Numbered from the stretch's first letter, positions 2,571-64,000 are shown. The stretch is DNA of 64,000 nucleotides from a virus (IMGVR_UViG_3300023110_000023:14302-78301), one strand, 5' to 3'. Translations and numbers: made by a program. Notes: generated by a model from the letters alone, not told the origin.

Positions 2571-2999
2571 ATGGGTCGCAATTGGGGCGCGTCGGCACTC
2601 GCTCGGTCGGGCAGAACGATTCCATCGTGGAGTCCTCGCCCTCTCGCGTACGATGAAGACTATTTTTGGCTCACGCTACGCTGGGGTCAATGGGCTGGTG
2701 ATGGTGCGACCATATCGGGAACAGTCGCTCTCGTATCGGGCGAGAGCATGGGTGAAATCGCCCCTGCCTTGCTTCCTTATCCGTTTGCTGGATGGGGCTA
2801 CAACACGGATTCGGCCATCGGATTCGGCACACGAACCGAACCCTATGTCGTGCCTGTCCTGTCGCAATCGGGGACTTTCCTGTTCCACGATTCCACCTTC
2901 TTGGACAGATGTTGGCTATCGGTTTCGGGGACTCTCCAGCGTGAACTTGACGAGCGTGAGAAGCGAACTTTTCGCCCAAACTTCGTCAAGCAGTCGTGA
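2571..2999 (+). CDS. hypothetical protein, possibly virion/neck-tail component
   Basis: Class III box GAAATAAACC at 2541; lies just upstream of tail genes. Confidence 0.55.
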   Translation: MGRNWGASALARSGRTIPSWSPRPLAYDEDYFWLTLRWGQWAGDGATISGTVALVSGESMGEIAPALLPYPFAGWGYNTDSAIGFGTRTEPYVVPVLSQSGTFLFHDSTFLDRCWLSVSGTLQRELDEREKRTFRPNFVKQS

Positions 3000-3045
3000 T
3001 ATTGACTCCGATAACAGCCTCGCTGTCCAAACCCAATCTCAAAAC

Positions 3046-3074
3046 CATTGATATTCCGAAGGTATTATAGGGGG
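3046..3074 (+). promoter_or_regulatory. class I double-box promoter (variant)
   Basis: CATTGATATTCCGAAGGTATTATAGGGGG; ATG 3094 at +30 from ATTATA. Confidence 0.65.
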
Positions 3075-3093
3075 CAACCTGTTGGCTCACATC

Positions 3094-3285
3094 ATGCAGA
3101 AGCAACACTTCGTCAAAGTCCGAGAAGACGGCCAGCGATTCGTGGTCTATTGGTTCATCGTTGAGCCAACGCGAGCATACGGGGGCGACATCATCGGAAT
3201 CCAGCAAAGCCGATGCAACGCTATGGAGGTCGCATACAGCGTAGCCCAGCGACACGGCACTACGGTCGTCATGCACCAAGCGTGA
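3094..3285 (+). CDS. small hypothetical protein (class I cassette)
   Basis: MQKQHFVKVREDG...; leaderless spacing from box. Confidence 0.6.
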   Translation: MQKQHFVKVREDGQRFVVYWFIVEPTRAYGGDIIGIQQSRCNAMEVAYSVAQRHGTTVVMHQA

Positions 3286-3324
3286 ACCAATTCCGTTAAG
3301 AACCGCATTGACCAACCAATCGGT

Positions 3325-3717
3325 ATGGCGGTTCACTCTTTCACAGGTGTCAGCGGAAAAATCACCGTGTCGGGAAGCATTGTCGGATTCGTTTCGGGCG
3401 ACTTCTCAATGACTGCGACAACGGGCAAATACATCACACTCGGAACGAACTACAACACGGCACACACTCGCGGTGTGCGAACTGTGTCGGGCTCGCTCAA
3501 GAAAGCGTGGGGTGTCAGCGATGACGAACTCTTTGATTGGTTCAACAACGACACCGAACTTGACATTGAGTTTGACGCTGATGACGCTGGAACGCACACA
3601 TACACCGTGTCGGGCTGTGTCTTGACCGACCTTGCGATTGAAGGACTTGAAGCAGGGAACGAGGGTGCGTTGATGATTAACGCTTCCTTTGAGGGCTTGA
3701 CTTGGGCTCGCGATTGA
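3325..3717 (+). CDS. tail tube protein
   Basis: 130-aa beta-rich acidic protein before chaperone and tape measure genes; class III box GTTAAGAACC at 3295. Confidence 0.75.
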   Translation: MAVHSFTGVSGKITVSGSIVGFVSGDFSMTATTGKYITLGTNYNTAHTRGVRTVSGSLKKAWGVSDDELFDWFNNDTELDIEFDADDAGTHTYTVSGCVLTDLAIEGLEAGNEGALMINASFEGLTWARD

Positions 3718-3728
3718 GGTGATTCACT

Positions 3729-4276: not shown

Positions 4277-6567
4277 GCGTGGCGATGGATAGCGTGGCTA
4301 AAATCACGGCCATCGTTGAAGCGCGTACGGCTGGCTTCAAGAAGGGAATGGCGGAGGTCGGAAGTGGGCTCACGGTTGCTGGTGGTCGTTTCAGCCGATT
4401 CGGTGAAACGGCTCGCAAGTCCTTCGTGGCGGTTCAAATCGGTGCTGTGCTTGCAGGTCAAGCCCTCGTTGCTGGCTTCGCAGTCAAGGCTTCAAAGGCG
4501 TTCATTGAGTTTGAGGATTCACTCCTTCGGACTTCGGCTATCATGGGCGGGAAGTCCATCTCGGACATTCAACGAGTGGCTGACGAAGTGATGCACTTGG
4601 GTGCTACAACCCGTTCCACAGCCGTTCAAGTGGGCGAGGCGGCGCAGATTTTGGCGTTGGCTGGTTTGAAGGAAGAGGACTTGGTGGACAACAAGGCACT
4701 TGAGCAATTGAACAACCTCGCAATCGCCGCTGGCGTTGATATGCCGACCGCCGCTGGCGTTGCGATTTCAGCCCTTAAAGGTATGGGAATGGAAACCAGC
4801 GAATTGGGTCGCGTGAACGATGTGATGATGCAAACAATGAGCAATTCGTTCACTACGGTTGAGTCGCTTGGGCAGACCATGAAGTTCCTTGCACCAACGG
4901 CTCGCGCGGCGGGCATTTCATTGGAAGAAGCATCCGCCGCGGCGGGTGCATTGGGCAACGCAGGGCTTCAAGGAACGATGGCTGGAACAGGTATGCGTAT
5001 GGCTATCAACAAACTCATCAAGCCGACTACGGAGGCTCGGAGGGTCATTGAAGACTTGAACCTCAATGTCTTCCGATTGACTCCAGCGGGTGAATCGGCT
5101 CGCAACAGTCTGCGAGGGGTTGAGGCTGGGTTGGAAGAAACTCGGCTTCAAGCGGAGGGCGTGAACCTTGAAATCAAGGCACTCAACAGCGAACTCAACG
5201 ACCTGTCCATTGACCAGCAGAAGAACAACCTTGAGATAGCCAAAATCCGCCAGCGAGCATCCAAGCAGGGTCGTGAATTGACCAAGCGTGAGATTGAACA
5301 GATTGAGCGTTTGGAGATGGCGAATGATGACTTGAACATCACCATGCAAGAACGCAGTTTGGAACTGTCCATCCAGCGAAGAGAGCAGACGCAGTTATCG
5401 GAGTCAATAAGCAGTCAAGAATCGGAGATGAACTCGCTCAACCAAACCATCACCGACCAAACTCAAGGACTGACATCGCTGACCGATTTGTTCCAGCAAT
5501 TGCGCGATGCTGGTGCGACAACATCGCAGATTCTCCAAGTCTTCGGTGTGCGTGGTGGAAACGCAATCAACGCCATTTTGGGACAGGCCGATGCCTTTGA
5601 GGAATTGGTCGCCAAGAACGAGGATGCAAACGGCAGAACTGCGGAGTTCGTTCAAACCATGACAGGCTCAACGCAGAACGCCCTGTTTGAATTGCAGTCA
5701 GCCTTCACAGCGTTGATGATAACAGTCGGTGAACAGTTCGCCCCGATGATAAAGGACACACTCGTTCCAGCACTCATCTTGGCGACTGAAAAATTGGGCG
5801 ATGAAGGCTTCGTGGAGGCGATGGGAGAAATCGCTGACAAATTGGTTGAGGTCTTGCCCCAATTGATTGATTCCTTCGTGCCTGTGCTGATTCAAATGGC
5901 GGAACAGTCGGATGACTTGATTTATGTCTTCGTGGCTCTCGCTCACGCTCTCCGATTCCTCATGGTTTTCATTGAGCCCATCTATGAATTGCTGGGCGGT
6001 ATCGGGATGATATTTGAGGGAATCGCGACCCTAAATCCACAGATGATTTTTGAGGGGCTTGGAAAGGCGGCGGGTGGTCTTGCACTCATATTGATGCCGA
6101 TATACAGGCTGGTTGAAGCGATTGCTGATTTCTTGGGCATTATTGACGAGGAAGGAACGGGCGCGCAACGGGCTGGGTCGGGTGCTTTGAAGGGGGCGGC
6201 GGCTGGTGCGTTGGTCGGTTCTGCTGTCCCCGTTGTCGGAACGGCGGCGGGTGCTGTCGTGGGTGGAATCATCGGTGCTGGGCTCACGATGTTCGCAGAA
6301 GGTGGAATCGTGAACGAAGCCACGCTGGGTGTCTTCGGTGAGGCTGGTTCGGAGGCTGTGATTCCGCTGGACAGACTCCCTGCATTGATGAGCGAATCAA
6401 TGGGAGGGCAAGCCTCAAAGCCCGAAACCACAGTCGTTTTCAGCGGGGACATCATCATTGGCGAAGGCAACAACCTTTCAAAGCGCGATGTTGAGCAGAT
6501 AATGGTGGAAACGATGCCGAAGGTGTTCAACCGATTCGGAATGCAAGGTGCAAGGGGTGTGATTTGA
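4273..6567 (+). CDS. tail tape measure protein (TP901-like core)
   Basis: HLGATTRSTAVQVGEAAQILALAG, ESLGQTMKFLAP, GLQGTMAGTGMR; coiled-coil; hydrophobic segments; C-term AEGGIV...GEAGSEAVIPL. Confidence 0.93.
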   Translation: MSVAMDSVAKITAIVEARTAGFKKGMAEVGSGLTVAGGRFSRFGETARKSFVAVQIGAVLAGQALVAGFAVKASKAFIEFEDSLLRTSAIMGGKSISDIQRVADEVMHLGATTRSTAVQVGEAAQILALAGLKEEDLVDNKALEQLNNLAIAAGVDMPTAAGVAISALKGMGMETSELGRVNDVMMQTMSNSFTTVESLGQTMKFLAPTARAAGISLEEASAAAGALGNAGLQGTMAGTGMRMAINKLIKPTTEARRVIEDLNLNVFRLTPAGESARNSLRGVEAGLEETRLQAEGVNLEIKALNSELNDLSIDQQKNNLEIAKIRQRASKQGRELTKREIEQIERLEMANDDLNITMQERSLELSIQRREQTQLSESISSQESEMNSLNQTITDQTQGLTSLTDLFQQLRDAGATTSQILQVFGVRGGNAINAILGQADAFEELVAKNEDANGRTAEFVQTMTGSTQNALFELQSAFTALMITVGEQFAPMIKDTLVPALILATEKLGDEGFVEAMGEIADKLVEVLPQLIDSFVPVLIQMAEQSDDLIYVFVALAHALRFLMVFIEPIYELLGGIGMIFEGIATLNPQMIFEGLGKAAGGLALILMPIYRLVEAIADFLGIIDEEGTGAQRAGSGALKGAAAGALVGSAVPVVGTAAGAVVGGIIGAGLTMFAEGGIVNEATLGVFGEAGSEAVIPLDRLPALMSESMGGQASKPETTVVFSGDIIIGEGNNLSKRDVEQIMVETMPKVFNRFGMQGARGVI

Positions 6568-9500
6568 TGGCTTCAACCAAACAAAGCATCACACAGACCT
6601 TCTCACGCATGAAGAACGGCCTTGCTGAACTCCAGCGGTGGTTTCCAGCCTTCATCAAGAACGATGGCGTTGGAGGGCTCTCCATTGACCCTGTGCTGTA
6701 TCGCACAAACTTCTCCGCCAAGACCCCAGCCCAAACGGGTGGCTACGATGACGAAGCCAGCCAAGCAGGGATTCGGGTGGAGGCAATCAACGATGACGGC
6801 ACAGATGTCAGCAACAACCCAACCATCGTCATATCGGGAAGCGGAACACTCAACGCCAAATGCACCATCAACCATGATGATGGAAGTGGCTCAACCGTCA
6901 TTCGCTTGATTGCACCATCGGGCGACTTGACAGGAAGTGGAACAAAAACACGCTCGCATGAGGGAATCGGGGATGCGACTTCCGACACGACCACGACCGC
7001 GCCCTTCCCCGTGTTCATGACGATTCAAGAACTGACCGAGATGCTTGACACCTATCGGCACATCGGAGATGGTGATGAAAACAAAAAGGCATGGCTTCCA
7101 CATGGGTTGGAAGGCGGAGGGCAACACGGCCACTCATCAGCATCGGCTTTGCCTTCGCTCGCTGGAGGCGACCCTCGCGAACCCACATCGGTTGCGTTCC
7201 CCACAGCCTCTCCGTATCGCGCAACCGTGTTCATGCCGATGATGCTGGACAACAACCAATTTGACAAACGAATCACGGGTGCGAGCAACGAGGTTGCTGA
7301 CTATACCTACCTCCTTGCGAACTTCGGTGGGGGCTACGATGTTCTTGACATTGACCGATACGACCCCGACCCCGAAGGCGAAGACTCGGCCACGATTCGC
7401 TACAAAACGGTGGGGTATTCGGGCGACCATTTGCTTGGGAAGAACACAGCACAGCAAGCATACAAAACCGCGCCCAGCGGAACGGCACACAACACAATGA
7501 CACACAACAACCCCGACTTATCGTTTGATGGAAGTGCAAGCCACTTCCCCAAATACCGAACCCGCTGTGCTTTGGCGATGTTCCTCAAAGACGGGACATA
7601 CACGCTCAAGGGCGGGACTCTCATTCCATACATCTATGACACGAATCGCGAGATTGGGGGCAACCAAACCAGCACAGTCCACGCGATTTGGGATGGGCTT
7701 GATGGAGAAGGCGACTTTGACATGACCGCTTCGGGCATTGAAAAACAATGCTCGGCTCAAATCACTCCGATGTTTGACTTCCTCCAGCCACCCATCACAA
7801 CCTCCGCACAGGGAGGCAATTTTGACTACGAGGTGGTCAATGGGTCAGCCAAGTTCAATTGGGCAAACTACATCACAGATGTGCAGTCAATCCAAGCCAG
7901 CGATTCCAACCTGTTCACAGATGGTGATGGAACGGACTTAGACCACATCACTACGGCACGACCGTTCTTGGTTCGCAACAACCCAGCAAGCGTTCCTGTG
8001 CGATACATTCGGAGGAACAATCTCATCCTGTCCATTTGGCTTGACTACACGAATGTCAGCGGTATCAGCGGTTCAACGATTCCTCAATTCACAGTCGGAA
8101 GTCCGATTGAACTGTGGGGACTCACGGGCGCGTTGGGCAGGGACACCTCTCAAGGTCGGAACATTGGGCATAAGTTCGGCCTCTATGAGTTCGCACCACG
8201 AAGCGAAGAAACGAATCCCGACACATATTCTTTGGGCGGGTTGAATCACAACGGATGGTGGATAATCAACGCGTACGATGACGATGGCGGTGGTCTTGAC
8301 GGAGAGTTTGTCGTGGATGACATTCTCGGCAACGGGGACTCAACCGAGTTCTATGGGGCTCGGATTGATATTCAAATCTATTCAAACGAAGCCCTTCCGA
8401 GTCAAGGGAATGTCAGCGCGTACGCGCCGACCAGCGGGTATGTTTGTCAAGGACTGATTGGAGGCGCGGAAAGCACTTCTTCTCACTATGGAACTGTTGC
8501 TTGGGCAACCAGCCAAAGCAATTCCCACCCCCAATTGCGACTCTTCGGTAGTGCGAGCGAGAAACTGTATGGAACGGGTGTTGGGTATATGGGCGGGGCA
8601 AACACCCCAGCGAACAATTTGCAGTCCCATGTTGGACATCGCTATTTTTACCCATCACGCATGGTTGATTCTTATGTTGATGAGGGAGAATGGGGTGCGA
8701 CAGGAAACACGGGGAATCTCAAGTTTTTCTTTGCCGATGACGCGACCGCGTTCCGTTCAATTGAATTGCAGAAGGCGACCGACTTGCTCTATTCCAATGG
8801 TGTTCCTGTTGTTCAAAGGGGAGATGGTTTGCTTCGGCTTCCAGCACCACAGGGCAAGGACATTGGTGCAAGGCGACTCTATTCCCTCACACAGACTCAC
8901 ATCACAGGCACATTCGTGAGTGAAGAAACTGACTTTCGCGGGCTCGGTTCGGACTTGGTTGAAAGCCTCCCAGCAACATGGTTGTCAAGAGGGCTTCACA
9001 TTCCCCTGTGGTCATACATTGACACGGCGAATGGCCGTCATGCTTGGGACTACATCAAGCCCATTGGTGCATCGGGAACATGGCTCTATGGGCGAAACCG
9101 ACCATTCCCAGCCCATGAACGAACAGGAACGCGATTGGGCTACAACGGAGGCGTTGCTCTTGACACGACCAAATACGGCTTGAGCGAGATGGGATGCTCG
9201 CAGATGTGGCTGGATTGGGAGATGAAGGCCAAAATCCCATTCCGAACAAATCAAATGGTGCGAATCACCTTTGACACCAACGAGGAACACTATGTCTTTG
9301 GTCGCCACGCTTTGATGTTTGATGACTTTCAAGGAACGATGAGGGGTGGTGCTGGCTTTTTGCCCCTGTATGATGGGAAGACATCAGCATCACCACTCAC
9401 ATTGAGTGCGTCATCATCGCCCGAAATCTATATTCGGGCTGGTGAAGGGTATTCAAATGGCTTCATAACGCACCCGTATGTGAACGGTGCGTTCACAGCA

Positions 9501-11303
9501 CCGCGTACGATAATTTGGTTCGGGGATGCTACATTCCTCAAGGATTCGGCTTGGTTGGGTGAGAAGGAATATCCGCTGGAGAACGCTGGTGGGAACTGTG
9601 GTTGGGGGTCAATGAACAACGGCTACGGCACAGGCACATCGTTCACCTATGCGGAAGGCTATCACACAGTCCGAGCAGTCTTCAACCAAGCAGGGATGAA
9701 CTTGCTCTTTGATGGTGTCAGTCAAGGCATTGACACCGAATCGGCCAAGACGGTGTATGGGCTGACGATTGAAAACTGCAAAATGGGCTTGTCCGTTTGG
9801 AATCAAAGCATCGGTGTTGATGAAAGCAGATTCCCCAAAGACGATGACGGCAACAGACTCGTTGCTGACAATCAAGCGTTGAGCAAGAATCAGTCCGATT
9901 TGCAGATTGACGAGATGGTATTGAGGTCAATACCGACTTCTGCGATGTTGCCGTTCAAGGTTCACACGATGAAACAGGACTTCTCCAATGTGGCTCGCTA
10001 TACCTCATTGACGGTTGAGGCTGACAACATTGACACCAAGAAGGGAATGAATGTCAAGGCGACCTTGATGACTCCATCCACCACGACCGTTGAGAACGAG
10101 GGGCAAGCCGTCATCAGCGGGTTTGAGAATGTGGATTTGGCGTTCAGCGGTGGCGTTGGTTCAATGGACTTGACCGACCTTCCAGCGTCAGCAATCGCAG
10201 ATGGGTTTGTGATTCGGTTTGACTTCTTCATCCCTAACAACACACAGACCGAATATCACCCGATTGATTGGTCAAAATTGCCCATCATTCGCTCTTGGAC
10301 TGTGGAATACGATGAGAAGCCAACGGCTTCGCTGGCGGTCATTGGGAACACATTCAACGGGGACATCACAGGAACAATCAACACCCGTGTTGGACACATC
10401 ATCTCGTTGCGTGGAACAGGCACGACAACCGATGTGGACAGAACCATCTCGGAGGTCAAGTTTGACTTCGGTGATGGGGCTTCAACGGGCTGGATAAAGT
10501 TCGCAGACCAAACGACTCAAAGCACGACATACGACATCGCTCACTCGTATTTGGCGAGTGGAACATACACCGTCAAGTGCTATTCTCGCGATGACTCCAA
10601 CAACGAATCGCTGGAATCAAACAACATCACCATCGTGGTCGCTAACGCGCCCCCTGTCGCCATCCTTCGTGCTGTGCCTTCAATGGTTCGTGCTGGGCAA
10701 GCAATCACCTTTGACGGCTCGGCATCGTATGACATCAACGCTGGTGGAACGCTGACGACATACACCTTCACCTTCGGAGATGGGTCGTCATCTGTGTCGG
10801 GTGCTTCGTCTTCGGTCAGCCACACATACGCCAACGGTGGTGAATATCAAGCCACGCTGGTCGTGGTTGATTCCGATGGGGCGACATCGCAGACTGCGAG
10901 CGTTGTTGTCAAGGTGCTTCCAGCGACCCTCGTTGTTCCGCTGGTTTTGAACACCAAGCCGAGAGCGTTCAGCCGAACTCGGTCAGCGAATCTCACTCAA
11001 ACGCCCGTATTGGACTCAATATACCCCGAACTCACAGACATGGGACAGCGAACTGACGAGTTCAAATTGGAAGGTTCGTTCCTCAAGCACACGGCCAATG
11101 CCGACATTGAGTTCATGGAAGAACTTCACCTGTCGGGCGCGCTGGTTGAAATCGTGTGGGAAGAGGTGAACTTCACAGGAACGCCAACGGGCAAGACATT
11201 CGTTGGTCGCATGACTTCGTTTGACTATCAGCGCGAGGGCGGTCGTCATGGCGAAACGCCATACACAGCGGTGTTCGTGAGGGAGGCTGGGCTCGGTGCT
11301 TGA
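6567..11303 (+). CDS. large virion/tail protein with two C-terminal PKD domains
   Basis: About 1578 aa; FDFGDG...HSYLASGTYTV and FTFGDG...HTYANGGEYQATL PKD signatures; follows tape measure; C-terminus resembles distal-tail domain. Confidence 0.8.
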   Translation: MASTKQSITQTFSRMKNGLAELQRWFPAFIKNDGVGGLSIDPVLYRTNFSAKTPAQTGGYDDEASQAGIRVEAINDDGTDVSNNPTIVISGSGTLNAKCTINHDDGSGSTVIRLIAPSGDLTGSGTKTRSHEGIGDATSDTTTTAPFPVFMTIQELTEMLDTYRHIGDGDENKKAWLPHGLEGGGQHGHSSASALPSLAGGDPREPTSVAFPTASPYRATVFMPMMLDNNQFDKRITGASNEVADYTYLLANFGGGYDVLDIDRYDPDPEGEDSATIRYKTVGYSGDHLLGKNTAQQAYKTAPSGTAHNTMTHNNPDLSFDGSASHFPKYRTRCALAMFLKDGTYTLKGGTLIPYIYDTNREIGGNQTSTVHAIWDGLDGEGDFDMTASGIEKQCSAQITPMFDFLQPPITTSAQGGNFDYEVVNGSAKFNWANYITDVQSIQASDSNLFTDGDGTDLDHITTARPFLVRNNPASVPVRYIRRNNLILSIWLDYTNVSGISGSTIPQFTVGSPIELWGLTGALGRDTSQGRNIGHKFGLYEFAPRSEETNPDTYSLGGLNHNGWWIINAYDDDGGGLDGEFVVDDILGNGDSTEFYGARIDIQIYSNEALPSQGNVSAYAPTSGYVCQGLIGGAESTSSHYGTVAWATSQSNSHPQLRLFGSASEKLYGTGVGYMGGANTPANNLQSHVGHRYFYPSRMVDSYVDEGEWGATGNTGNLKFFFADDATAFRSIELQKATDLLYSNGVPVVQRGDGLLRLPAPQGKDIGARRLYSLTQTHITGTFVSEETDFRGLGSDLVESLPATWLSRGLHIPLWSYIDTANGRHAWDYIKPIGASGTWLYGRNRPFPAHERTGTRLGYNGGVALDTTKYGLSEMGCSQMWLDWEMKAKIPFRTNQMVRITFDTNEEHYVFGRHALMFDDFQGTMRGGAGFLPLYDGKTSASPLTLSASSSPEIYIRAGEGYSNGFITHPYVNGAFTAPRTIIWFGDATFLKDSAWLGEKEYPLENAGGNCGWGSMNNGYGTGTSFTYAEGYHTVRAVFNQAGMNLLFDGVSQGIDTESAKTVYGLTIENCKMGLSVWNQSIGVDESRFPKDDDGNRLVADNQALSKNQSDLQIDEMVLRSIPTSAMLPFKVHTMKQDFSNVARYTSLTVEADNIDTKKGMNVKATLMTPSTTTVENEGQAVISGFENVDLAFSGGVGSMDLTDLPASAIADGFVIRFDFFIPNNTQTEYHPIDWSKLPIIRSWTVEYDEKPTASLAVIGNTFNGDITGTINTRVGHIISLRGTGTTTDVDRTISEVKFDFGDGASTGWIKFADQTTQSTTYDIAHSYLASGTYTVKCYSRDDSNNESLESNNITIVVANAPPVAILRAVPSMVRAGQAITFDGSASYDINAGGTLTTYTFTFGDGSSSVSGASSSVSHTYANGGEYQATLVVVDSDGATSQTASVVVKVLPATLVVPLVLNTKPRAFSRTRSANLTQTPVLDSIYPELTDMGQRTDEFKLEGSFLKHTANADIEFMEELHLSGALVEIVWEEVNFTGTPTGKTFVGRMTSFDYQREGGRHGETPYTAVFVREAGLGA

Positions 11304-11473: not shown

Positions 11474-11504
11474 CATTGATATTGTGAAAACATTGATATA
11501 CCCC
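11474..11504 (+). promoter_or_regulatory. class I double-box promoter
   Basis: CATTGATATTGTGAAAACATTGATATACCCC; ATG 11522 at +29. Confidence 0.75.
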
Positions 11505-11521
11505 ACCCCTAATGCCTAACC

Positions 11522-26140: not shown

Positions 26141-26157
26141 GCTTGCTACCATTGACC

Positions 26158-48116: not shown

Positions 48117-49418
48117 ATGATGAAGCGAAAAGTGTTGATTCCGATTGGCGATGACGATGAGAACTCCACCGAGCATTCCCTGTTCGGAGGCGTTCACTCA
48201 AGTCTGCTGGGCTGGAATGTGGATGATTCTCATTGGAGAGCCACGCAAGCATCGCTGTCCCATCGCGTACAGATGGGGGCTTTCACCGAGATGACCCGAC
48301 TGATGACTGACCAACGAACCGCACGACCCGATGGTGAAATCACGCTGGAGGATTTTGGTCGGGCTGTCAAGGTCGTGGATGACACATACGATGATGTCCG
48401 AGAAGCAAAGGGTCGGGTTGAGAACACGGACTGTGAACTGACCTTCACTTCACCACAGCAGATGCTTGAGGCTGACAGTCAGCGAGGCTATCCCAACGCC
48501 CCTTCATTCAGCGACCCAACCAATTTGGGTGAGGCTAACCAATATCCGTTTGACTTCGGCTGTCCCGTCTTCGTTGTGAGGCAGGGGTGGGGAACTCCCT
48601 TCCCCGTGTTCTCCGAGTTTCAATATCTCGTTGAAGCCAACACAGCATTCAATGACGACCGTAGTGGTGCGTATTCGTGGGTCGGCAATCGCATCAAGAG
48701 CCTTCGGACTATGCCCACCGACCAATACGGCCACATCAATGCAATTGATGTGCCGATGGTGCTGATTCCACTCCCCGACCATGAACCGTATCTCGTTGGG
48801 AAGGTCGCCATGTTGAACACGAATCGCTTCTCGGTCGTGGGCAACATCGCTGACCCGATTCGCACAGGAGTGAACGCTGGGAAGCCCCTTATTCGCCCCG
48901 ATATATCGTTTGATGTGTTCCGCTGGCTTCGCCAAAACTATCAGCCACAACACCCACAGGAAACGGCTTGGACTGACATTCGCATCATGGCGTTGGAGAA
49001 GACGCTCAACGGCTTCATTCGCTCGGATGGAGAGCGACTCAATGACTACATCAACAATGCTGGCTATCTCCAATCGTCAGCCATGCTGTTGAAGCACCTG
49101 TCAGCCGTGAACGCGCTGGCGGAGGAAAACACCGAAACGCCTGTCGTGCAAGAGCGAGTGGGGGACTTCATCCCGTCTTGGAAGGATAAGCGAAAGCCCA
49201 TCCTCATTGACCGAGCATTCCCCCAATACCCCGTCTTCCATGACGAGATTCGCTGTGCTGGATGCAACGGCAGGGTGCTGATGAAACTCCCTGCTGGGAA
49301 CACCCTCTCATCGCTTCCATGCCCACACGATTCGTGCGAAAGCACCCTCCAATTCACCCACCTTCTCGGCAACCAAAACGGTCAAAAAGGTGGGACTGAA
49401 AATGAAATTGCGAAGTGA
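48117..49418 (+). CDS. hypothetical protein with C-terminal Zn ribbon
   Basis: 433 aa; SD GAGGTGA; CAGC...CPHDSC. Confidence 0.8.
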   Translation: MMKRKVLIPIGDDDENSTEHSLFGGVHSSLLGWNVDDSHWRATQASLSHRVQMGAFTEMTRLMTDQRTARPDGEITLEDFGRAVKVVDDTYDDVREAKGRVENTDCELTFTSPQQMLEADSQRGYPNAPSFSDPTNLGEANQYPFDFGCPVFVVRQGWGTPFPVFSEFQYLVEANTAFNDDRSGAYSWVGNRIKSLRTMPTDQYGHINAIDVPMVLIPLPDHEPYLVGKVAMLNTNRFSVVGNIADPIRTGVNAGKPLIRPDISFDVFRWLRQNYQPQHPQETAWTDIRIMALEKTLNGFIRSDGERLNDYINNAGYLQSSAMLLKHLSAVNALAEENTETPVVQERVGDFIPSWKDKRKPILIDRAFPQYPVFHDEIRCAGCNGRVLMKLPAGNTLSSLPCPHDSCESTLQFTHLLGNQNGQKGGTENEIAK

Positions 49419-49423: not shown

Positions 49424-49903
49424 ATGGCGAAGAAAATCCCCAAGAGTTTGAAGCGAAGCATCGTGAAGGCGTTGCTGAATGAAGAAGAATTGACACCAGC
49501 ACAGGTCAGCGAGCGAGTGAACGCTGACCCCGAACTGCCCGAAAACTATCGGAAGACTCCGAAGCAGATGGCGTTTGTGATGAACCAAGTGGTCAAAGAA
49601 CTGAATGGCGTTGAGATGGTCGTGCTGTCCCGAAACGGTGTCAGCCATCATGGGAACGAGCGATTCCGAAAGGCGTATCGTGCAACATACGAAACGCTGG
49701 ATGAAGCCGATGAGGAACTCGGTGTCATCAACAAACCCACCAAGCGACTCAAGCAAATCACGGTGAACCTTCCCGATGATTGCGTCGCGTACATCAAGGC
49801 ATGGCGTGAGGCTGGTGTGAGTGCTGGTCGTGCGGTTGAGAACTTGATTCGTGCTGACATGGAAGCCAACGGTTTGCCCGATTCCTCCGCAGACGAAGTT
49901 TGA
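49424..49903 (+). CDS. putative transcription regulator (wHTH plus ribbon-helix-helix)
   Basis: N-term ELTPAQVSERV wHTH-like; C-term KQITVNLPDDCVAYIK...SAGRAVENLIR CopG/RHH-like. Confidence 0.65.
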   Translation: MAKKIPKSLKRSIVKALLNEEELTPAQVSERVNADPELPENYRKTPKQMAFVMNQVVKELNGVEMVVLSRNGVSHHGNERFRKAYRATYETLDEADEELGVINKPTKRLKQITVNLPDDCVAYIKAWREAGVSAGRAVENLIRADMEANGLPDSSADEV

Positions 49904-54652: not shown

Positions 54653-54900
54653 CACAGGGCTCAACGACTCTCATCATGGCTTCCGACATCACTCTTCCAC
54701 CTAAGTGCAGGTGGGTTGCGAGTGGGAAGAATCCGACAGCATACATCATGAATCAATACGACCAATGCGTGTGTCAAATCTGCCTCAAGCCAATCACCCA
54801 GCAGAACACCAAATGCACTCGCAGACTCAAGGAGAAGTCCTGTGGTCAATGCTATCTCAAGTGGAAGGCATTGGAACGAGAGCGAATGGGCTTGTCTTGA
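54649..54900 (+). CDS. Zn-finger protein
   Basis: CQICLK...CGQCY. Confidence 0.6.
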   Translation: MTQGSTTLIMASDITLPPKCRWVASGKNPTAYIMNQYDQCVCQICLKPITQQNTKCTRRLKEKSCGQCYLKWKALERERMGLS

Positions 54901-54926
54901 TAACGGTGGGACAGCCCGTTCCACGC

Positions 54927-56363
54927 ATGGCCTCATACGAAGTCGTTCTTGGCGACTGCCTCACCGAACTCAAAGCGATGGAGGGTGGGCGATTCCATTC
55001 GTGCATCACCTCCCCTCCGTATTTCATGTTGAGGGACTACGGCACAGACGAGCAGATTGGGAACGAGGAATCGCTGGATGACTACATCGCCAAAATGGTT
55101 GAGGTGATGCGTGAGGTTCGCAGGGTGCTTCGGGATGACGGAGTGCTGTGGCTGAACATCGGTGATTCATACAACGGAAGCGGGGGTGCTGGAGGCGACT
55201 ACAACAAAGGTGGCTGGAAGGAAGGACAACCGCGATACGGCAAGAAGGATGACCCACGATTCAAGCCGAAGGACTTGATGCTCGTTCCACATCGGCTGGC
55301 GATTGCTCTCCAAGAGGATGGTTGGTTCTTGCGACAGGACATCGTTTGGGCGAAGAACAACCCGATGCCCGAACCAGCGAAGGACAGGTGCGTGAAGGCT
55401 CACGAATATGTCTTCCTCCTGTCCAAATCTCGCCACTATTTCTTTGACCACATCGCCATCCAAGAGCCCGTTGCAGACTCCAAACGCACGAACTACGCCT
55501 GTGGCGGTCGGACAAACGGAATCAACCACGACAGGAACGACAACGACATGAGGGAACGGTCGCTGGGAATCGTGTTCAAGACTCGCAACAAACGAAGCGT
55601 GTGGACTGTCAATACGAAGGCATACGCTGGGGCTCACTTCGCTGTGTTCCCACCCGAACTGATTGAACCATGCGTCTTGACCACGCCAACCAAGTGCTGT
55701 GCAGAATGTGGACAGGGCTACGAGAGGGTCGTTAAAGACCGAGCCTTGACTGACGAGGAAGTGCATGACTTGATGATGACACCCGAAGGGGATGATGTTC
55801 CATACACGGTCAAGGAACTTGGACACGGCAGAAGTGCTGTGGTTGAGTTTAGGGACTTGCCTCCACCGAAGGTGCTGGCGACCTATCTCAACGATGCGAG
55901 GAAGAGGGCTGGCTTGACCATCAAGGAAGTGGAGGAACGGCTGGAGTCAAGAGCCCCACATCATTGGTTTGAGATGGGCGATTCGCATTCATACCCGTCT
56001 GCTGACGAATGGCCGACCGTCAAGGAACTGTTTGACCTTGACGACCGATACGATGAGCAGATGACCAATGTGAAGTTCAAGAGTGGAATCAAAGGCGAGA
56101 ACGAGCCCACAGTCTATGGCTGGGAGAAGGCTTGCGTTTGTGAAACTGACGAAACCAAACCAGCGGTCGTGCTTGACCCGTTTGGCGGAAGTGGAACTAC
56201 GGCTGGAGTGGCGGTCAAGAATCAGCGAGATGCTGTGCTTATTGAAGTCAATAGCGAATACGCCAAACTCATCCCGAACCGTGTCAAGTCAATCGTTGGC
56301 TACGACCTTGCAGAAGGCGAGGCTTCGGTGGACACCCAAACTTTTGATGATTGGTTCAATTGA
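54927..56363 (+). CDS. DNA N4-cytosine (beta-class amino) methyltransferase with inserted HTH
   Basis: ITSPPY catalytic motif N-terminal, VLDPFGGSGTT SAM motif C-terminal, HFAVFP; start 30 bp after class II box at 54897. Confidence 0.93.
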   Translation: MASYEVVLGDCLTELKAMEGGRFHSCITSPPYFMLRDYGTDEQIGNEESLDDYIAKMVEVMREVRRVLRDDGVLWLNIGDSYNGSGGAGGDYNKGGWKEGQPRYGKKDDPRFKPKDLMLVPHRLAIALQEDGWFLRQDIVWAKNNPMPEPAKDRCVKAHEYVFLLSKSRHYFFDHIAIQEPVADSKRTNYACGGRTNGINHDRNDNDMRERSLGIVFKTRNKRSVWTVNTKAYAGAHFAVFPPELIEPCVLTTPTKCCAECGQGYERVVKDRALTDEEVHDLMMTPEGDDVPYTVKELGHGRSAVVEFRDLPPPKVLATYLNDARKRAGLTIKEVEERLESRAPHHWFEMGDSHSYPSADEWPTVKELFDLDDRYDEQMTNVKFKSGIKGENEPTVYGWEKACVCETDETKPAVVLDPFGGSGTTAGVAVKNQRDAVLIEVNSEYAKLIPNRVKSIVGYDLAEGEASVDTQTFDDWFN

Positions 56364-56886: not shown

Positions 56887-57437
56887 TGTCCTTCCCATCA
56901 CCTCAAGCCAAACTGATTCACTACAACATGGCTCAAGAGATTCTTGAGGATGCAGAACTGAATGGCGTGGTGCTGGAGTCCGAAGAGGGCTTCGTGAACT
57001 ACCGAGATGACTTCGTGAAGCAAGTCTTCCTTGACCCAGCCAGCCCGCGATACCGAATGTCGTGGAGTGGCGTTGGTGTGCGAGCGAACTTCAACAGGAA
57101 CAGCATCACCTATTGGCGAGCGAGCAACCGAGAGCGTTTGGTTGAGGATGAGAAGAACCGCTTGCGTGAGATTGATGAAAACCTCCGACGCGCCCACGCC
57201 ATGCGTCGTGATGCACTTGCATTGGCCGATGGTGCGGTTGCTGAAATCTTGGCGACCGACTTGACCACGCACACCAACGAATCGGTGTACGCGTTCTTCA
57301 ACGAGGTTTGGTGCAGGGAGAAGGGTTGCGACATCAAATCCTTCGCCAAGACGAAGCAGTTCCGAATGTTCCAAGACTTCGCATTCCGAAGGCTCAACGA
57401 AGCCGTTGCAGACGCAGGGATTGGTGAAGACGAATGA
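56883..57437 (+). CDS. hypothetical protein
   Basis: Coupled; SD GGAGG. Confidence 0.7.
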   Translation: MMSFPSPQAKLIHYNMAQEILEDAELNGVVLESEEGFVNYRDDFVKQVFLDPASPRYRMSWSGVGVRANFNRNSITYWRASNRERLVEDEKNRLREIDENLRRAHAMRRDALALADGAVAEILATDLTTHTNESVYAFFNEVWCREKGCDIKSFAKTKQFRMFQDFAFRRLNEAVADAGIGEDE

Positions 57438-58125: not shown

Positions 58126-58126
58126 G

Positions 58127-58234: not shown

Positions 58235-58413
58235 GAACCCATCATCGTGAGCATCTCGGACACTTTTGACAGGCTGAAAGAAGTCTATTTCACCGTGTAC
58301 GCGTGGGTCATGATTCCACCCATTCTCATCGCGATTTGGGTGCTTCAACATCACCGAGCAAATCGCATTGAGATACCGAAAGAGTGAAAATCCACATAGC
58401 CTTTGGGAATAGC

Positions 58414-59813: not shown

Positions 59814-60077
59814 ATGGCTCGGAACGCTTCACGCAAGACGAGGCGAGCGAACCTGTATCGGCACATGGTCAAGTCCATGAGTGTGCTGGGGGACTTCACA
59901 GCGAGTTCCCTGTGCGACCACATGAACGGTGGCTACACTTACACGCCCAGCGTTCAGTCGTTGTCCATGCACCTTCGTGCGTTTGTCCGAGATGGGCGCG
60001 TACGAATCGTCAAGGAGGCTCGTTGTCGCAGGGAATATCGGTGGGTTGGTGATGAACTCGTTCACGAAGACCCGTGA
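59814..60077 (+). CDS. small winged-helix-like protein
   Basis: FTASSLCDHM...PSVQSLSMHLRAFVRDGRV; class II box at 59784. Confidence 0.6.
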   Translation: MARNASRKTRRANLYRHMVKSMSVLGDFTASSLCDHMNGGYTYTPSVQSLSMHLRAFVRDGRVRIVKEARCRREYRWVGDELVHEDP

Positions 60078-61631: not shown

Positions 61632-62184
61632 ACTCGGCTCTCGCGATGCGTTGGATGCAATCCGACTTGCTGACCTATTCAAGTGCGAAGTCGTGGCTTG
61701 GGAATGCAACCCAAGCGCGATTGAACTGTGCAAGCACCACATTGGCGACAGGACTGACATCACGCTGGTGGAGAAGGCCGTGTGGTCGGAGAGCAAACTG
61801 CTGACCTTCCGACCCGTTGTGAACGGCAATCTCGGTGCATCATCGGTGTTCAAGGCGAACCACGCATACCCACATGAGAAGCCATACGAGCAAGTGGAGA
61901 TAACTGTGGAGGCGATGCGAGTGGATGAGTGGTGGGGCGACCGTACGCGACCGAACCTGCTGTGCATGGACTTGCAGGGCGCGGAGATGGAAGCGTTGGA
62001 ATCGCTGGGCGACATGATTGACGAGATTGACTACATCATCACGGAGGGTCAATGGAAGCGTCTGTATCACGACACTCCGCTGATTGAGGACATCTCCGAC
62101 TTCTTGGTTGAGCGTGGCTTTCGGCTCACCAAGTTCAAGGAAGTGAACGATTGGTTTGGCGACTTCCTGTTCAGTCGTGTGTGA
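61570..62184 (+). CDS. FkbM-family SAM methyltransferase
   Basis: VLELGSRD, VAWECNP, VEAMRVD, LLCMDLQGAEMEAL. Confidence 0.9.
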   Translation: MSGAYRHFTAYITKPIRSVLELGSRDALDAIRLADLFKCEVVAWECNPSAIELCKHHIGDRTDITLVEKAVWSESKLLTFRPVVNGNLGASSVFKANHAYPHEKPYEQVEITVEAMRVDEWWGDRTRPNLLCMDLQGAEMEALESLGDMIDEIDYIITEGQWKRLYHDTPLIEDISDFLVERGFRLTKFKEVNDWFGDFLFSRV

Positions 62185-62494
62185 TGTAAAGCGCGCCCGT
62201 TGATTCAACGAATGCACCCACCACGACAACGATTCCCTTGAGGAAGAGGATTCCGTTTAAGTCAATGTCAATGACCCCGCCCGATTCCTTGTCCCTGTCG
62301 TGCGATGGGATGAATTGGAACTTGGCCGTTGCTGGAAGCGTGTCGGTTTGGTTCGCATCATAGATGGAGATGAGGGGAAGCGTGGCGGAGTTTGAGGGTT
62401 TGTCAAAATACCCTTTGACACCAGCGACCCGTGTGGAATATGAGAACACCAAAGTCGTTCCATCCGATACAATCGGCAACGAGATGATAGGCAT
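62171..62494 (-). CDS. small beta-sandwich putative virion protein (paralog A)
   Basis: C-term GILFLKGIVV; class III box GTCTTAACCC 31 bp upstream on minus strand. Confidence 0.65.
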   Translation of the reverse strand: MPIISLPIVSDGTTLVFSYSTRVAGVKGYFDKPSNSATLPLISIYDANQTDTLPATAKFQFIPSHDRDKESGGVIDIDLNGILFLKGIVVVVGAFVESTGALYITHD

Positions 62495-62635
62495 GAACAG
62501 ACGATTCGCATATGCGGGTTAAGACGGTATTGACCCCGATAAATCTGAATCTCAATGCTTCCCCACGACTGTATTTAAACATGGGAATCTGCAACACCGA
62601 TTTGGTGATAAACCGCAGAACTGTTGATATGGGTC

Positions 62636-62932
62636 ATGAGCAACGCCAAAGTCGTTGAAACAGCCGATGCAACCTTGATTGGAAGCGAACCAATCATGCT
62701 CTTGAGCATCGTAGTCGGCACGACAGAACCCCCGCCAGCAGGTGCATTCACCGTTGATTTGCATAACGCCAATTCCGCTGGAGATACGCTGAACGATTCC
62801 AACAGGAAGGTTCGCCTGTCCATTGGGGCTCAATCCAATGGCTTCGCACACTCCTTTGATGGAGTCATGTTCCCGAAGGGGCTGGTCGTGAAATGCTCAT
62901 CGGCTGTTCCCATCACGGTGGAATACGAATGA
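62636..62932 (+). CDS. small beta-sandwich putative virion protein (paralog B)
   Basis: C-term GVMFPKGLVV; class III box GTGATAAACC at 62605. Confidence 0.65.
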   Translation: MSNAKVVETADATLIGSEPIMLLSIVVGTTEPPPAGAFTVDLHNANSAGDTLNDSNRKVRLSIGAQSNGFAHSFDGVMFPKGLVVKCSSAVPITVEYE

Positions 62933-63258
62933 CCCAAGCCCCGACCCTCATCCTGTGTCCGTCTGCTGAAAACCCCAAGCAATTCCGTCTTGGGATTTTC
63001 AAGGGAATCGCGATTGAACATATCGTGAACATCAATGCCGAGATTTTGGGCGATGCAATCAAGGTCGTCAAGCAGATATTGGGCTCAATCACCGAATTGG
63101 ATTTGTCTGCGTGGAACGGGGATTTCAGCATGGGACACCTTCGGGTCTTGAATCCCGAAGCAGACGCGCCCCGCTGGATGATTGACTTCTCCCCCAAAGT
63201 CCCCGAAGAAGTGAACGCTGTGTCCATCACACCCGTTCCTCCGCCTAACGGTTTTTGA
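62929..63258 (+). CDS. hypothetical protein
   Basis: ATGA overlap with upstream gene. Confidence 0.65.
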   Translation: MTQAPTLILCPSAENPKQFRLGIFKGIAIEHIVNINAEILGDAIKVVKQILGSITELDLSAWNGDFSMGHLRVLNPEADAPRWMIDFSPKVPEEVNAVSITPVPPPNGF

Positions 63259-63282
63259 TGGTGGGACAAAGTGAGTGGGAAC

Positions 63283-63465
63283 ATGGACAAAGAACCACAG
63301 GTTCGGGAATGGGTTCTTCCCGCCCTGTCATCAACCAGCGCGATTGGTGAAAAATTAGTCAGCATCCTCATGGCGAACCCGAATCAAGTTCTGCGAGCGT
63401 GTCGCATCGGAGAGGAAATCCTGTTCGTTGCTGTGGAGGGTGAGGTATGGAAGAAAGCCGACTGA
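63283..63465 (+). CDS. small hypothetical protein
   Basis: Class II-like box TTTTTGATGGTGGG at 63252. Confidence 0.55.
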   Translation: MDKEPQVREWVLPALSSTSAIGEKLVSILMANPNQVLRACRIGEEILFVAVEGEVWKKAD

Positions 63466-64000
63466 CAAATCCATTGTCGGTTGAACACCTCCTTCAAGTC
63501 CAAGCCCACTATCGCTCGCTTCGTGAATCGGACAATTTCATCAAGGAACTTCCGCCCAAGAGCGATTGGATTCGCTGGCGATACCTTGACGATGACATCA
63601 ATCACAAATTGGCTTCCGTGAGGTTTGAGCAATCTCCGACCATCAGCATCCATGCGTACGCGTTTGATTGGAACGACCCGCTTCTGCTGGAGGGGCTGAT
63701 TCGCCACGAACTCTTGCATCTCGTATGGGGCGCGAGCGAGGGTCATGGTGCGTTGTTCACGGCATCCGAAGAGGGCTGGGACAAGTTCCACCGCTACAAA
63801 CGGCAGAAGCGGAGGTTCTTCTCGGCCTTGCACTCGGAATCGGGGCGAGAGTTCTCGTATGCGTGTGCAAATTGTCAGCGAATGGTTCACCTAAACCGCG
63901 CCCTGCGACCCAATTCGGCTTGTCTTGAGTGTTGTAAAGCATTCAACAACGGCAAGTGGTGTGAAGCATATACATTGATAAGGGTGGGCGACCTCCCGTG
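63447..64000 (+). CDS. SprT-like metalloprotease with Zn ribbon (runs to window edge; not in ORF track)
   Basis: MEESRLTNP...LIRHELLH...EGHGALF...YACANC...CLECC; SD GGAGG/GGTGA; last codon TG. at 63999-64000. Confidence 0.85.
   Translation, partial: MEESRLTNPLSVEHLLQVQAHYRSLRESDNFIKELPPKSDWIRWRYLDDDINHKLASVRFEQSPTISIHAYAFDWNDPLLLEGLIRHELLHLVWGASEGHGALFTASEEGWDKFHRYKRQKRRFFSALHSESGREFSYACANCQRMVHLNRALRPNSACLECCKAFNNGKWCEAYTLIRVGDLP
63975..63988 (+). promoter_or_regulatory. class II promoter for the next gene beyond the window
   Basis: TTGATAAGGGTGGG. Confidence 0.65.

What the first reader, a model, noticed from the sequence alone, without database searches (positions are those of the whole stretch)
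2645..63662. Methylation pattern readable from sequence: GTAC and GCGC survive only inside CGCG
Seen: all 28 GTAC sites I found by eye lie in CGCGTAC or GTACGCG (2645, 4322, 8270, 8417, 9502, 12775, 18067, 20953, 24840, 28110, 30875, 31698, 33451, 35382, 37086, 38952, 39614, 42417, 45169, 48264, 49786, 51856, 54281, 57287, 58297, 59997, 61943, 63656). Elsewhere Tyr after a G-ending codon is written TAT. Dozens of GCGC sites occur as GCGCG/CGCGC, and the two exceptions I found are both CGGCGC/GCGCCG. Established: cytosine methylation inside a recognition site blocks many GTAC (RsaI-like) and GCGC (HhaI-like) endonucleases. Inference: the first C of CGCG is methylated in viral DNA and shields overlapping forbidden sites. 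Only the first C lies inside GTAC, so the modified base can be predicted. The virus's SPPY N4-C methyltransferase (54927-56363) is the obvious candidate writer, but a host orphan MTase is equally possible. This would be anti-restriction by overlap shielding, written into the genome.
Basis: partly seen in the sequence, partly recalled or inferred. Interest (0 to 1): 0.9.

Follow-up and report, generated by a model that had tools for sequence, protein, structure and literature searches.

The report
Forbidden restriction sites survive only beside CGCG
An uncultured archaeal tailed virus has erased dozens of restriction-enzyme target words from its genome, yet keeps GTAC and GCGC only where they overlap CGCG, which suggests (unproven) that a chemical mark on CGCG protects them.

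Summary
All 28 GTAC in the window (35/35 in the 78.3-kb genome) lie in CGCGTAC/GTACGCG. 87 of 89 GCGC (103/106 genome-wide) lie in CGCGC/GCGCG. A protein- and codon-preserving shuffle expects 193 unshielded GTAC and 238 unshielded GCGC; 0 and 3 are seen.

The genome also lacks ACGT, AGCT, CCGG, CTAG, GATC, TCGA, AGTA/TACT and about 50 longer words. About 30 relatives each purge a different set, and none shows this signature.

Best reading, not proven: CGCG carries a modification, most simply N4-methylcytosine on its first C. That would leave GTAC and GCGC marked on one strand at the position cognate methylases use. The candidate writer is the virus's only DNA methyltransferase (SPPY motif, unique ~160-aa insert, replication-class promoter); a host enzyme is not excluded. 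One complete relative has 431 CGCG, no such enzyme and no GTAC, so CGCG adjacency alone does not protect.

New here:
- CGCG is about 2.5-fold depleted and tolerated mainly as CGCGTAC, CGCGATT and CGCGCCC.
- The heptamers are unusually evenly spaced (P about 1e-5). Repulsion over about 1 kb reproduces this, which hints at a leaky shield.
- My interim claim that the heptamer is enriched disappeared under a stricter null.

Other first-stage notes of this scan flagged the same pattern on this genome.

The parts
2645..2651 (+). CGCGTAC heptamer (shielded GTAC)
4322..4328 (+). CGCGTAC heptamer
8270..8276 (+). CGCGTAC heptamer
8417..8426 (.). CGCGTACGCG, the only GTAC flanked by CGCG on both sides
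9502..9508 (+). CGCGTAC heptamer
12775..12781 (+). CGCGTAC heptamer
18067..18073 (-). CGCGTAC heptamer (GTACGCG on + strand)
20953..20959 (-). CGCGTAC heptamer (GTACGCG on + strand)
24840..24846 (+). CGCGTAC heptamer
28110..28116 (+). CGCGTAC heptamer
30875..30881 (+). CGCGTAC heptamer
31698..31704 (+). CGCGTAC heptamer
33451..33457 (+). CGCGTAC heptamer
35382..35388 (+). CGCGTAC heptamer
37086..37092 (+). CGCGTAC heptamer
38952..38958 (+). CGCGTAC heptamer
39614..39620 (-). CGCGTAC heptamer (GTACGCG on + strand)
42417..42423 (+). CGCGTAC heptamer; no difference is listed here for three strains 4-6% diverged (only 40 of about 1,300 differences were shown)
45169..45175 (+). CGCGTAC heptamer
48264..48270 (+). 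CGCGTAC heptamer
49786..49792 (+). CGCGTAC heptamer
51856..51862 (+). CGCGTAC heptamer
54281..54287 (+). CGCGTAC heptamer
57287..57293 (-). CGCGTAC heptamer (GTACGCG on + strand)
58297..58303 (-). CGCGTAC heptamer (GTACGCG on + strand)
59997..60003 (+). CGCGTAC heptamer
61943..61949 (-). CGCGTAC heptamer (GTACGCG on + strand)
63656..63662 (-). CGCGTAC heptamer (GTACGCG on + strand)
4640..4646 (+). CGGCGCA: GCGC not overlapped by CGCG (exception 1)
40549..40555 (-). CGGCGCA on the minus strand: GCGC exception 2
54927..56363 (+). Only DNA methyltransferase found in the genome: beta-class PF01555, motif IV SPPY, motif I DPFGGSGTT; candidate writer
55683..56162 (+). About 160-aa insert (residues 253-412) between motif VIII and motif I, absent from the G001 homolog; conserved Cys pairs and an HTH-like helix pair; no Pfam family
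54897..54910 (+). Promoter box TTGATAACGGTGGG about 17 nt upstream of the methyltransferase ATG; same box class as upstream of replication-module genes

Best explanation
The virus lives under very heavy restriction pressure and has removed almost every target word from its genome. CGCG is the exception. In virion and replicating DNA, CGCG is chemically modified, most simply as N4-methylcytosine on its first C.

In GTACGCG that C is the C of GTAC. In GCGCG it is the inner C of GCGC. Both overlapping sites therefore carry, on one strand, the same mark that cognate GTAC and GCGC methylases would place. Restriction systems must spare such half-methylated DNA because it looks like freshly replicated host DNA. 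Every GTAC or GCGC that does not overlap CGCG has been eliminated.

The most likely writer is the virus's own and only DNA methyltransferase, an SPPY enzyme with a private 160-aa insert, transcribed from a replication-class promoter. A host CGCG methylase would leave the same footprint.

Protection of GTAC appears leaky when two sites lie within about 1 kb of each other, which would explain why the heptamers keep their distance.

Shown: the sequence pattern, its statistics, its uniqueness among relatives, and the enzyme's family and motifs. Inferred: the modification, its position, its writer and the leakiness.
For: - Pattern and statistics: 35/35 GTAC and 103/106 GCGC overlap CGCG, against 193 and 238 unshielded sites expected.
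- Shielded GCGC behaves as neutral given CGCG: the GCGC/CGCG ratio is 0.51 observed and 0.51-0.53 in the nulls.
- The heptamer count equals the fully constrained null: 36 against 34.2+-4.3.
- 34 of 35 GTAC sites have a single flank, so one-strand shielding is sufficient.
- Natural control: G004 has 431 CGCG, none of the three methyltransferase families searched and 0 GTAC, where 7.7 CGCGTAC are expected (P 5e-4).
- The closest relatives (G001, G008/L214, L191) have 0 CGCG and 0 GTAC. G001's homologous enzyme lacks the insert.
- G000 has a single DNA methyltransferase, with SPPY. SPPY is the motif of the m4C enzyme N4CMT, while the m6A enzyme CcrM has DPPY (PMC10406627).
- Archaeal persistent m4C methylases exist for GTAC and for CGCG (PMC10609329). 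CGCG methylation was found in marine Euryarchaeota genomes, and GTAC methylation in one (PMC8919816).
- Strains 4-6% diverged still obey the word rules: 1 violation in 39 listed substitutions against 14.7 of 40 for random substitutions.
- Spacing: gap CV 0.51, P 1.3e-5, the lowest of 4,207 k-mers, and reproduced by repulsion over 0.6-1.5 kb.
Against: - No modification data exist; the whole mechanism is inferred from sequence.
- CGCG is itself 2.0-2.5-fold depleted and concentrated in CGCGATT, CGCGCCC and CGCGTAC. CGCGCG, CGCGCCA, CGCGACG and others are almost absent. A simple 'all CGCG are protected' model does not predict this.
- The two loci whose enzymes share the insert (38-39% identity) give no support. 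L030 has CGCG 11 against 56 expected and no GTAC. L031 is not purged at all.
- GATC followed by GCG is not rescued, although the geometry is the same. This is explicable if the GATC systems read adenine, but that is an assumption.
- A second context rule cannot be explained by CGCG: GCSGC survives almost only as GCGGCG, and the three GCGC exceptions are all CGGCGCA.
- In the diverged strains one substitution pair creates an unshielded AGCGCT.
Confidence: 0.55

Rival explanations
1. The same shielding mechanism operates, but the CGCG mark is written by a host methyltransferase (an orphan, or part of a host CGCG restriction system). The viral SPPY enzyme protects some other motif.
For: CGCG methylation was detected in 19 marine genomes, including Euryarchaeota (PMC8919816). 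A persistent orphan m4C CGCG methylase exists in Nitrososphaera (PMC10609329). Loci with insert-bearing homologs do not tolerate CGCG. CGCG is partly depleted, as expected if protection depends on which host the virus last grew in.
Against: The nearest relatives purge CGCG completely, so hosts of this lineage commonly restrict CGCG rather than merely methylate it. G000 is the only family member with this insert-bearing enzyme and the only one with rescued sites. No other tolerated C-containing palindrome in G000 obviously needs protection.
Confidence: 0.25
2. CGCGTAC is a functional signal of the virus in its own right. It could be a strand-specific nick site, a replication or recombination signal, or a Chi-like self mark. 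GTAC is purged elsewhere, and the CGCG part belongs to the signal rather than acting as a shield.
For: The spacing is the most even of 4,207 k-mers (P 1.3e-5), with both short gaps (P 3e-4) and long gaps (P 0.009) under-represented. The heptamer occurs in all three frames and both orientations, including 6 uses of the rare GTA codon. It escapes the 2.5-fold depletion of other CGCG contexts.
Against: The count matches the fully constrained neutral null, 36 against 34.2+-4.3. Repulsion alone reproduces the spacing. The orientation bias (24:11) is close to the codon-driven expectation (7.6:5.2). There is no extended context apart from a following purine, no link to transcription units and no significant positional bias within genes. 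This reading does not explain the parallel GCGC rule. None of about 30 relatives has the heptamer.
Confidence: 0.1
3. No modification is involved. The host GTAC and GCGC nucleases simply fail on sites flanked by CGC/GCG, because of flank preference or local DNA structure such as alternating purine-pyrimidine tracts.
For: CGCGTAC and GCGCG are both fully alternating purine-pyrimidine runs (read directly from the sequence). Flank effects on restriction enzymes are known in general (own knowledge).
Against: G004 purges GTAC even next to its 431 CGCG sites: 0 observed against 7.7 expected. TGCGC and GCGCA are also alternating runs, yet they are absent. Flank effects are normally quantitative, not all-or-none.
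Confidence: 0.05

Closest known systems
Self-methylation versus motif purging in archaeal tailed viruses (Liu et al. 2021, PMC8651126; HF1 group, PMC7230728)
   Same: These are tailed archaeal viruses that either carry a methyltransferase and keep its motif, or lack it and purge the motif. They show complete absence of palindromic tetramers such as GATC and CTAG. The replication and cobaltochelatase-like gene content and the leaderless promoters are similar.
   Different: In G000 the purge is far wider: 6 palindromic tetramers, AGTA/TACT and about 50 longer words. The set differs from that of the HF1 group, where TGCA and CATG are depleted; here they are not. The tolerated motif appears to protect other, overlapping motifs, which those papers do not describe.
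Blocking of restriction enzymes by overlapping methylation (Dam, Dcm or CpG overlap effects; for example RsaI and HhaI sensitivity to CpG methylation)
   Same: The biochemical principle is the same: a methyl group placed by an enzyme with a different recognition site blocks cleavage where the two sites overlap (established knowledge, not tested here).
   Different: This is known as an in-vitro nuisance or tool. Here it would be an evolved genome-wide strategy, visible as an all-or-none context rule. The five literature searches run surfaced no such footprint.
Persistent archaeal m4C methyltransferases for CGCG (HG12) and GTAC (HG10, HG18) (Anton et al. 2023, PMC10609329)
   Same: They write m4C on four-base palindromes, including exactly the two motifs involved here, and they occur as orphans.
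   Different: Those enzymes are chromosomal. The viral enzyme has a private 160-aa insert.
Multispecific methyltransferases of Bacillus phages (SPR, phi3T, rho11)
   Same: A single phage enzyme gives protection against several host restriction enzymes (own knowledge).
   Different: Those enzymes carry several target-recognition domains and methylate each site directly. Here one specificity would cover other sites only where they overlap.

Membership tests
Beta-class N4/N6 DNA methyltransferase (PF01555) | Pfam N6_N4_Mtase match above the gathering score | tested here: met
   144 bits against a cut-off of 26.7; confirmed on the genome
Beta-class N4/N6 DNA methyltransferase (PF01555) | Catalytic motif IV (S/D)PPY lies N-terminal to the SAM-binding motif I (FxGxG) | tested here: met
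   TSPPYF at residues 28-33 and DPFGGSGTT at 417-425; nearest solved relatives are CcrM, TTHA0409, DpnA, N4CMT, MboIIA and RsrI
N4-cytosine-specific subgroup | Ser rather than Asp in motif IV (SPPY), as in N4CMT | tested here: met
   SPPY is present; the motif contrast comes from PMC10406627. The activity itself is not testable here, and m4C and m6A enzymes can be very similar (PMC10609329)
CGCG-specific methyltransferase | Methylates CGCG, on the first C | not testable with these tools
   There are only indirect genome footprints; loci with insert-bearing homologs do not support the link
Restriction-site avoidance in viruses | Target words absent far beyond codon- and protein-preserving expectation, with lineage-specific sets among relatives | tested here: met
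Restriction-site avoidance in viruses | Ongoing purifying selection against the words | tested here: met
   1 violation in 39 listed natural substitutions against 14.7 of 40 random ones; this is a small, truncated sample
Self-methylating virus that keeps its motif (Liu 2021 pattern) | Motif frequent in viruses that encode the enzyme and absent in those that lack it | tested here: inconclusive
   G000 has 2.7 CGCG per kb, but that is 2.0-2.5-fold below the nulls. G001, G008, G003 and L191 have 0. However, G004 has 431 CGCG without the enzyme
Chi-like over-represented oriented signal | Over-representation against a proper null, and orientation bias beyond codon effects | tested here: not met
   36 against 34.2+-4.3 under the full null; sense:antisense is 24:11 against 7.6:5.2 in the null

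The most novel reading that the evidence does not exclude
The heptamer is more than a tolerated leftover. Because CGCG methylation marks only one strand of GTAC, each CGCGTAC is a permanently half-marked, strand-asymmetric GTAC site. The virus may use about 35 such sites, kept 1-5 kb apart, as a signal: for example, strand-specific nicking by a GTAC nuclease to start recombination-dependent replication, or a strand-discrimination mark. It would thus have turned a host restriction target into its own genomic punctuation.
Probability: 0.1. Interest if true: 0.85.

Novelty: new variant of a known kind. Interest (0 to 1): 0.65.

Why it matters
If confirmed, this would be a case where the modified motif, the modified base and even the strand state of an uncultured virus's DNA can be read from plain sequence. 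It would also show a new economy in anti-restriction: one methyltransferase specificity covering several host enzymes through site overlap.

It gives a sharp, cheap experimental prediction: m4C on the first C of CGCG, with one-strand protection of GTAC and GCGC. It also suggests a general way to mine virus genomes for hidden methylation motifs, by looking for forbidden words that survive only in one fixed context.

The virus family is also a striking natural record of host restriction repertoires. Each member erases a different word set, and strains only 4-6% apart remain under active selection.

Tried and rejected
1. Positive selection for the heptamer count. It was suggested by a null with only the absolutely absent words (13.8+-2.8 against 36). 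I withdrew it after a null that also freezes 73 strongly depleted words gave 34.2+-4.3. Null C was mis-specified because the core words were left out, and should be ignored.
2. Link to transcription units. Heptamer counts per promoter-defined interval fit a random multinomial. Position within genes is not significantly biased, and there is no conserved context beyond a following purine.
3. Tracing the methyltransferase-to-CGCG link through homologs. Scans with an alignment of insert-bearing enzymes returned mostly generic beta-class enzymes. Only L030 and L031 carry the insert, and neither is informative.
The contigs of the 99%-identical and 46-53%-identical enzymes (P0002-P0009) could not be fetched.
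5. The phage nucleotide search gave no match.
6. Read laying on four diverged runs listed only 40 of about 1,300 differences. Heptamer conservation across strains could therefore not be measured; only one heptamer lay in a fully listed stretch.
7. The AlphaFold model of the enzyme has mean pLDDT 68 and was not taken to a fold search. The insert has no Pfam family.
8. The Pfam scans covered about 40 of roughly 85 ORFs and found no base-hypermodification pathway and no nuclease next to the methyltransferase gene. A PD-(D/E)XK nuclease and an ERCC4-type nuclease are encoded elsewhere in the replication module. Many small ORFs have no family.


Full report
**What the DNA is**

The window is bases 14302-78301 of a 78,301-bp IMG/VR virus record rated 97% complete. 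It encodes:
- a tape-measure protein, a tail tube protein and a large PKD-domain protein;
- a family B DNA polymerase, an RFC-like clamp loader and an archaeo-eukaryotic primase;
- an ERCC4/HhH nuclease, a PD-(D/E)XK nuclease and an XPD-like helicase;
- CobS/CobT-like AAA and VWA proteins;
- one DNA methyltransferase.

Promoter boxes of the form (C)ATTGATATA-CCCC/GGGG or TTGATAA(G/C)GGTGGG sit about 22-30 nt before start codons. That is the archaeal TATA-box pattern with leaderless transcripts.

The PolB protein is structurally closest to archaeal clusters. The DNA is held at full identity in twelve salt-marsh metagenome runs, which are the probable source. It is held at 30-56% of sampled words in marine, aquatic, freshwater and aquaculture runs of other studies.

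So this is an uncultured archaeal tailed virus. The exact host is unknown.

**The observation**

It holds exactly.
- Of 89 GCGC, 87 are CGCGC or GCGCG. The two exceptions are both CGGCGCA.
- Over the whole genome the counts are 35/35 and 103/106, and the third exception is again CGGCGCA.

I built a null by swapping synonymous codons genome-wide. It keeps every protein and the codon usage, and it refuses any swap that creates one of the 57 words that are absolutely absent. This null gives 202+-8.5 GTAC, 193 of them unshielded, and 455+-16 GCGC, 238 of them unshielded. The context rule is therefore not chance and not a by-product of the other avoided words.

**The wider setting**

The genome contains no ACGT, AGCT, CCGG, CTAG, GATC or TCGA. 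It has no AGTA and a single TACT. About 17 pentamers and 30 hexamers that should be common are also missing, and many are classical restriction sites: CCWGG, GGWCC, GGNCC, GCWGC, GTSAC, CTCAG, GTCTC, ACTGG, CTGAAG, GCAATG and others.

About 30 relatives, found through PolB at 46-67% identity, each lack a different combination of tetramers. AGCT is missing in nearly all and GATC in most. ACGT, CTAG, CCGG, TCGA, CGCG, GCGC and GTAC vary.

The purge is under active selection. Thirty-nine substitutions were listed for strains 4-6% diverged. Random substitutions of the same types would create a violation in 14.7 of 40 cases.

**Uniqueness, and a natural control**

No other locus among about 140 screened has GTAC confined to CGCG context.
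- The closest relatives (G001, L191, L214/G008) have neither CGCG nor GTAC.
- G002 and G004 tolerate CGCG and GCGC freely but have no GTAC.
- G004 is complete (terminal repeats, 80.6 kb) and has none of the three methyltransferase families searched. It has 431 CGCG and 0 CGCGTAC. From its CGCGTA[A/G/T] counts, 7.7 would be expected if CGCG context alone permitted GTAC (P 5e-4).

Adjacency to CGCG is therefore not protective by itself. Something particular to G000 or its host is required. This argues against an explanation based on nuclease flank preference or DNA structure.

**Mechanism**

In GTACGCG, the first C of CGCG is the C of GTAC, and no other C of either strand's CGCG lies inside GTAC. 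In GCGCG, the first C of CGCG is the inner C of GCGC, which is the position HhaI-type methylases modify.

Several published facts fit this:
- Archaeal GTAC methylases are m4C enzymes, and GTAC has only one C (PMC10609329).
- m4C CGCG methylases exist in archaea (same paper).
- CGCG methylation was seen in marine Euryarchaeota genomes (PMC8919816).

A mark on the first C of CGCG would thus reproduce the cognate protective mark on one strand. Only one of the 35 GTAC sites has CGCG on both sides (8417-8426), so one-strand marking must be enough. That fits the general requirement that restriction systems spare half-methylated, newly replicated DNA (established principle).

Given the number of CGCG sites, shielded GCGC is exactly as frequent as in the nulls: ratio 0.51 against 0.51-0.53. 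It behaves as neutral.

**The candidate writer**

G000 has a single DNA methyltransferase.
- It is beta-class PF01555, with motif IV SPPY and motif I DPFGGSGTT. SPPY is the motif of the solved m4C enzyme N4CMT, while the m6A enzyme CcrM has DPPY (PMC10406627).
- Its promoter box, TTGATAACGGTGGG, belongs to the same class as boxes upstream of replication-module genes. That would suit methylation during replication.
- The G001 homolog is 39-58% identical in the core but lacks about 160 residues (253-412) between motif VIII and motif I.
- Seventeen database proteins share this insert at 37-53% identity, plus one at 99% and one partial match. It has invariant Cys pairs and an HTH-like helix pair and no Pfam family.

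This fits a change of specificity, but it is only circumstantial. The two retrievable loci with the insert (38-39% identity) do not show CGCG tolerance together with rescued sites. A host CGCG methylase remains a serious alternative.

**What the simple model does not explain**

1. CGCG is 2.0-2.5-fold rarer than the nulls predict: 208 against 427-520. It is concentrated in CGCGATT (48 against 20), CGCGCCC (62 against 41) and CGCGTAC. CGCGCG, CGCGCCA, CGCGACG, CGCGGGA and others are almost absent. Possible reasons are flank-dependent methylation efficiency or further unknown target words.
2. GCSGC is eight-fold depleted (16 against 135), and 15 of the 16 are GCGGCG. Together with the three CGGCGCA exceptions, this points to a second context rule around CGGCG, as another first-stage note suggested.
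3. GATC followed by GCG is not rescued.

**Heptamer count and spacing**

Against the null with only the absolute constraints, the heptamer looked 2.6-fold enriched: 36 against 13.8, with 34 of 196 synonymously possible positions used against 12.1 expected.

I then also froze 73 strongly depleted words, mostly TA-containing ones such as GTAA, CCTAC, CTACC and TACCA. The expectation rose to 34.2+-4.3. The count therefore needs no positive selection. TAC and GTA codons are funnelled into the one legal GTAC context. This null fixes the observed codon usage, so it is somewhat circular. It also remains true that the heptamers escape the general CGCG depletion.

The spacing is not explained by any null.
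- The gap CV is 0.51, against 0.96 for uniform placement and 1.06+-0.22 in the full null.
- P is 1.3e-5, and this is the lowest CV of 4,207 k-mers tested.
- Only one gap is under 600 bp, and the largest is 5.3 kb.
- Shielded GCGC, CGCG, CGCGCCC and CGCGATT are spaced randomly.
- A simulation with soft neighbour repulsion over 0.6-1.5 kb reproduces both the CV and the largest gap.

The most economical reading is that close pairs of heptamers are selected against. One-strand protection of GTAC may be leaky towards nucleases that act on two sites in cis. That is inference.

The heptamers show no relation to transcription units, no longer motif and no orientation bias beyond the codon-driven one.

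**Verdict**

The shielding interpretation is coherent, is supported by a natural control and by published archaeal methylation biology, and makes a precise prediction. However, the modification, its position and its writer are all inferred.

I place about 0.8 on shielding by a CGCG modification. Of that, about 0.55 goes to the viral enzyme as writer and about 0.25 to a host enzyme. The remainder is about 0.1 on the heptamer being a functional signal in its own right and about 0.05 on modification-free flank effects.

It is a new variant of known anti-restriction strategies, combining site avoidance with self-methylation. My literature searches turned up no description of such a footprint.

Noticed in passing
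whole window (also G000:1-14301): The non-palindromic tetramer AGTA/TACT is absent (0 and 1 copies; about 174 expected in the shuffle). It is also almost absent in relatives L030, L192, L193, L194 and L200, even where GTAC is free (L192). This suggests a defence system with a 4-base asymmetric target.
   Followed up: partly
whole window: GCSGC is 8-fold depleted (16 against 135), and 15 of the 16 are GCGGCG/CGCCGC. The three GCGC exceptions are all CGGCGCA. CGGCG may be a second protective context. Every Ala-Ala dipeptide necessarily contains GCNGC.
   Followed up: partly
whole window: CGCG occurs mainly as CGCGATT (48), CGCGCCC (62) and CGCGTAC (36). CGCGCG (3 against about 30), CGCGCCA, CGCGACG, CGCGGGA and CGCGACT are nearly or fully absent. 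GGCC is never preceded by G or followed by C (GGNCC is avoided).
   Followed up: partly
G001 (L019-L023), whole 81.5-kb record: The hexamer CGACCG (85 copies, at its expected frequency) is spaced very evenly (gap CV 0.49, P below 3e-6, Bonferroni 0.014). G003 has CTCTTTC (17 copies, CV 0.32). Evenly spaced private motifs may be a trait of this virus family.
   Followed up: partly
G001:77170-80403 (L013-L016): The closest relative carries two adjacent methyltransferases: the short SPPY enzyme and a C5-cytosine methyltransferase in a 750-aa ORF. It tolerates TCGA (699), CCGG and GCGC, which G000 purges or restricts.
   Followed up: no
window 42383-42384: In three diverged strains (runs X16, X21, X23) CT is replaced by AG, creating AGCGCT, an unshielded GCGC. 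The GCGC rule may be relaxed in that lineage.
   Followed up: partly
window 36322-38007: A 561-aa glycosyltransferase matches GT4-conflict (PF20706, 6e-10), a family described from conflict systems. Its target (DNA, virion or host surface) is unknown.
   Followed up: no
genome-wide, e.g. window 34-64, 11476-11522, 26128-26158, 54897-54929: Promoter boxes fall into two main classes, CATTGATATA-CCCC/GGGG (often in tandem with CCATTGATATTC) and TTGATAA(G/C)GGTGGG. Each has an ATG about 22-30 nt downstream, indicating leaderless transcripts.
   Followed up: partly
Pfam gave no family at E below 0.01 for the 337-aa ORF.
   Followed up: partly
panel loci L032, L039, L045, L052, L054, L108, L126, L128, L130: Many unrelated aquatic viruses that carry beta-class PF01555 methyltransferases completely lack ACGT and AGCT. 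Avoidance of these two words looks widespread in aquatic viromes.
   Followed up: no
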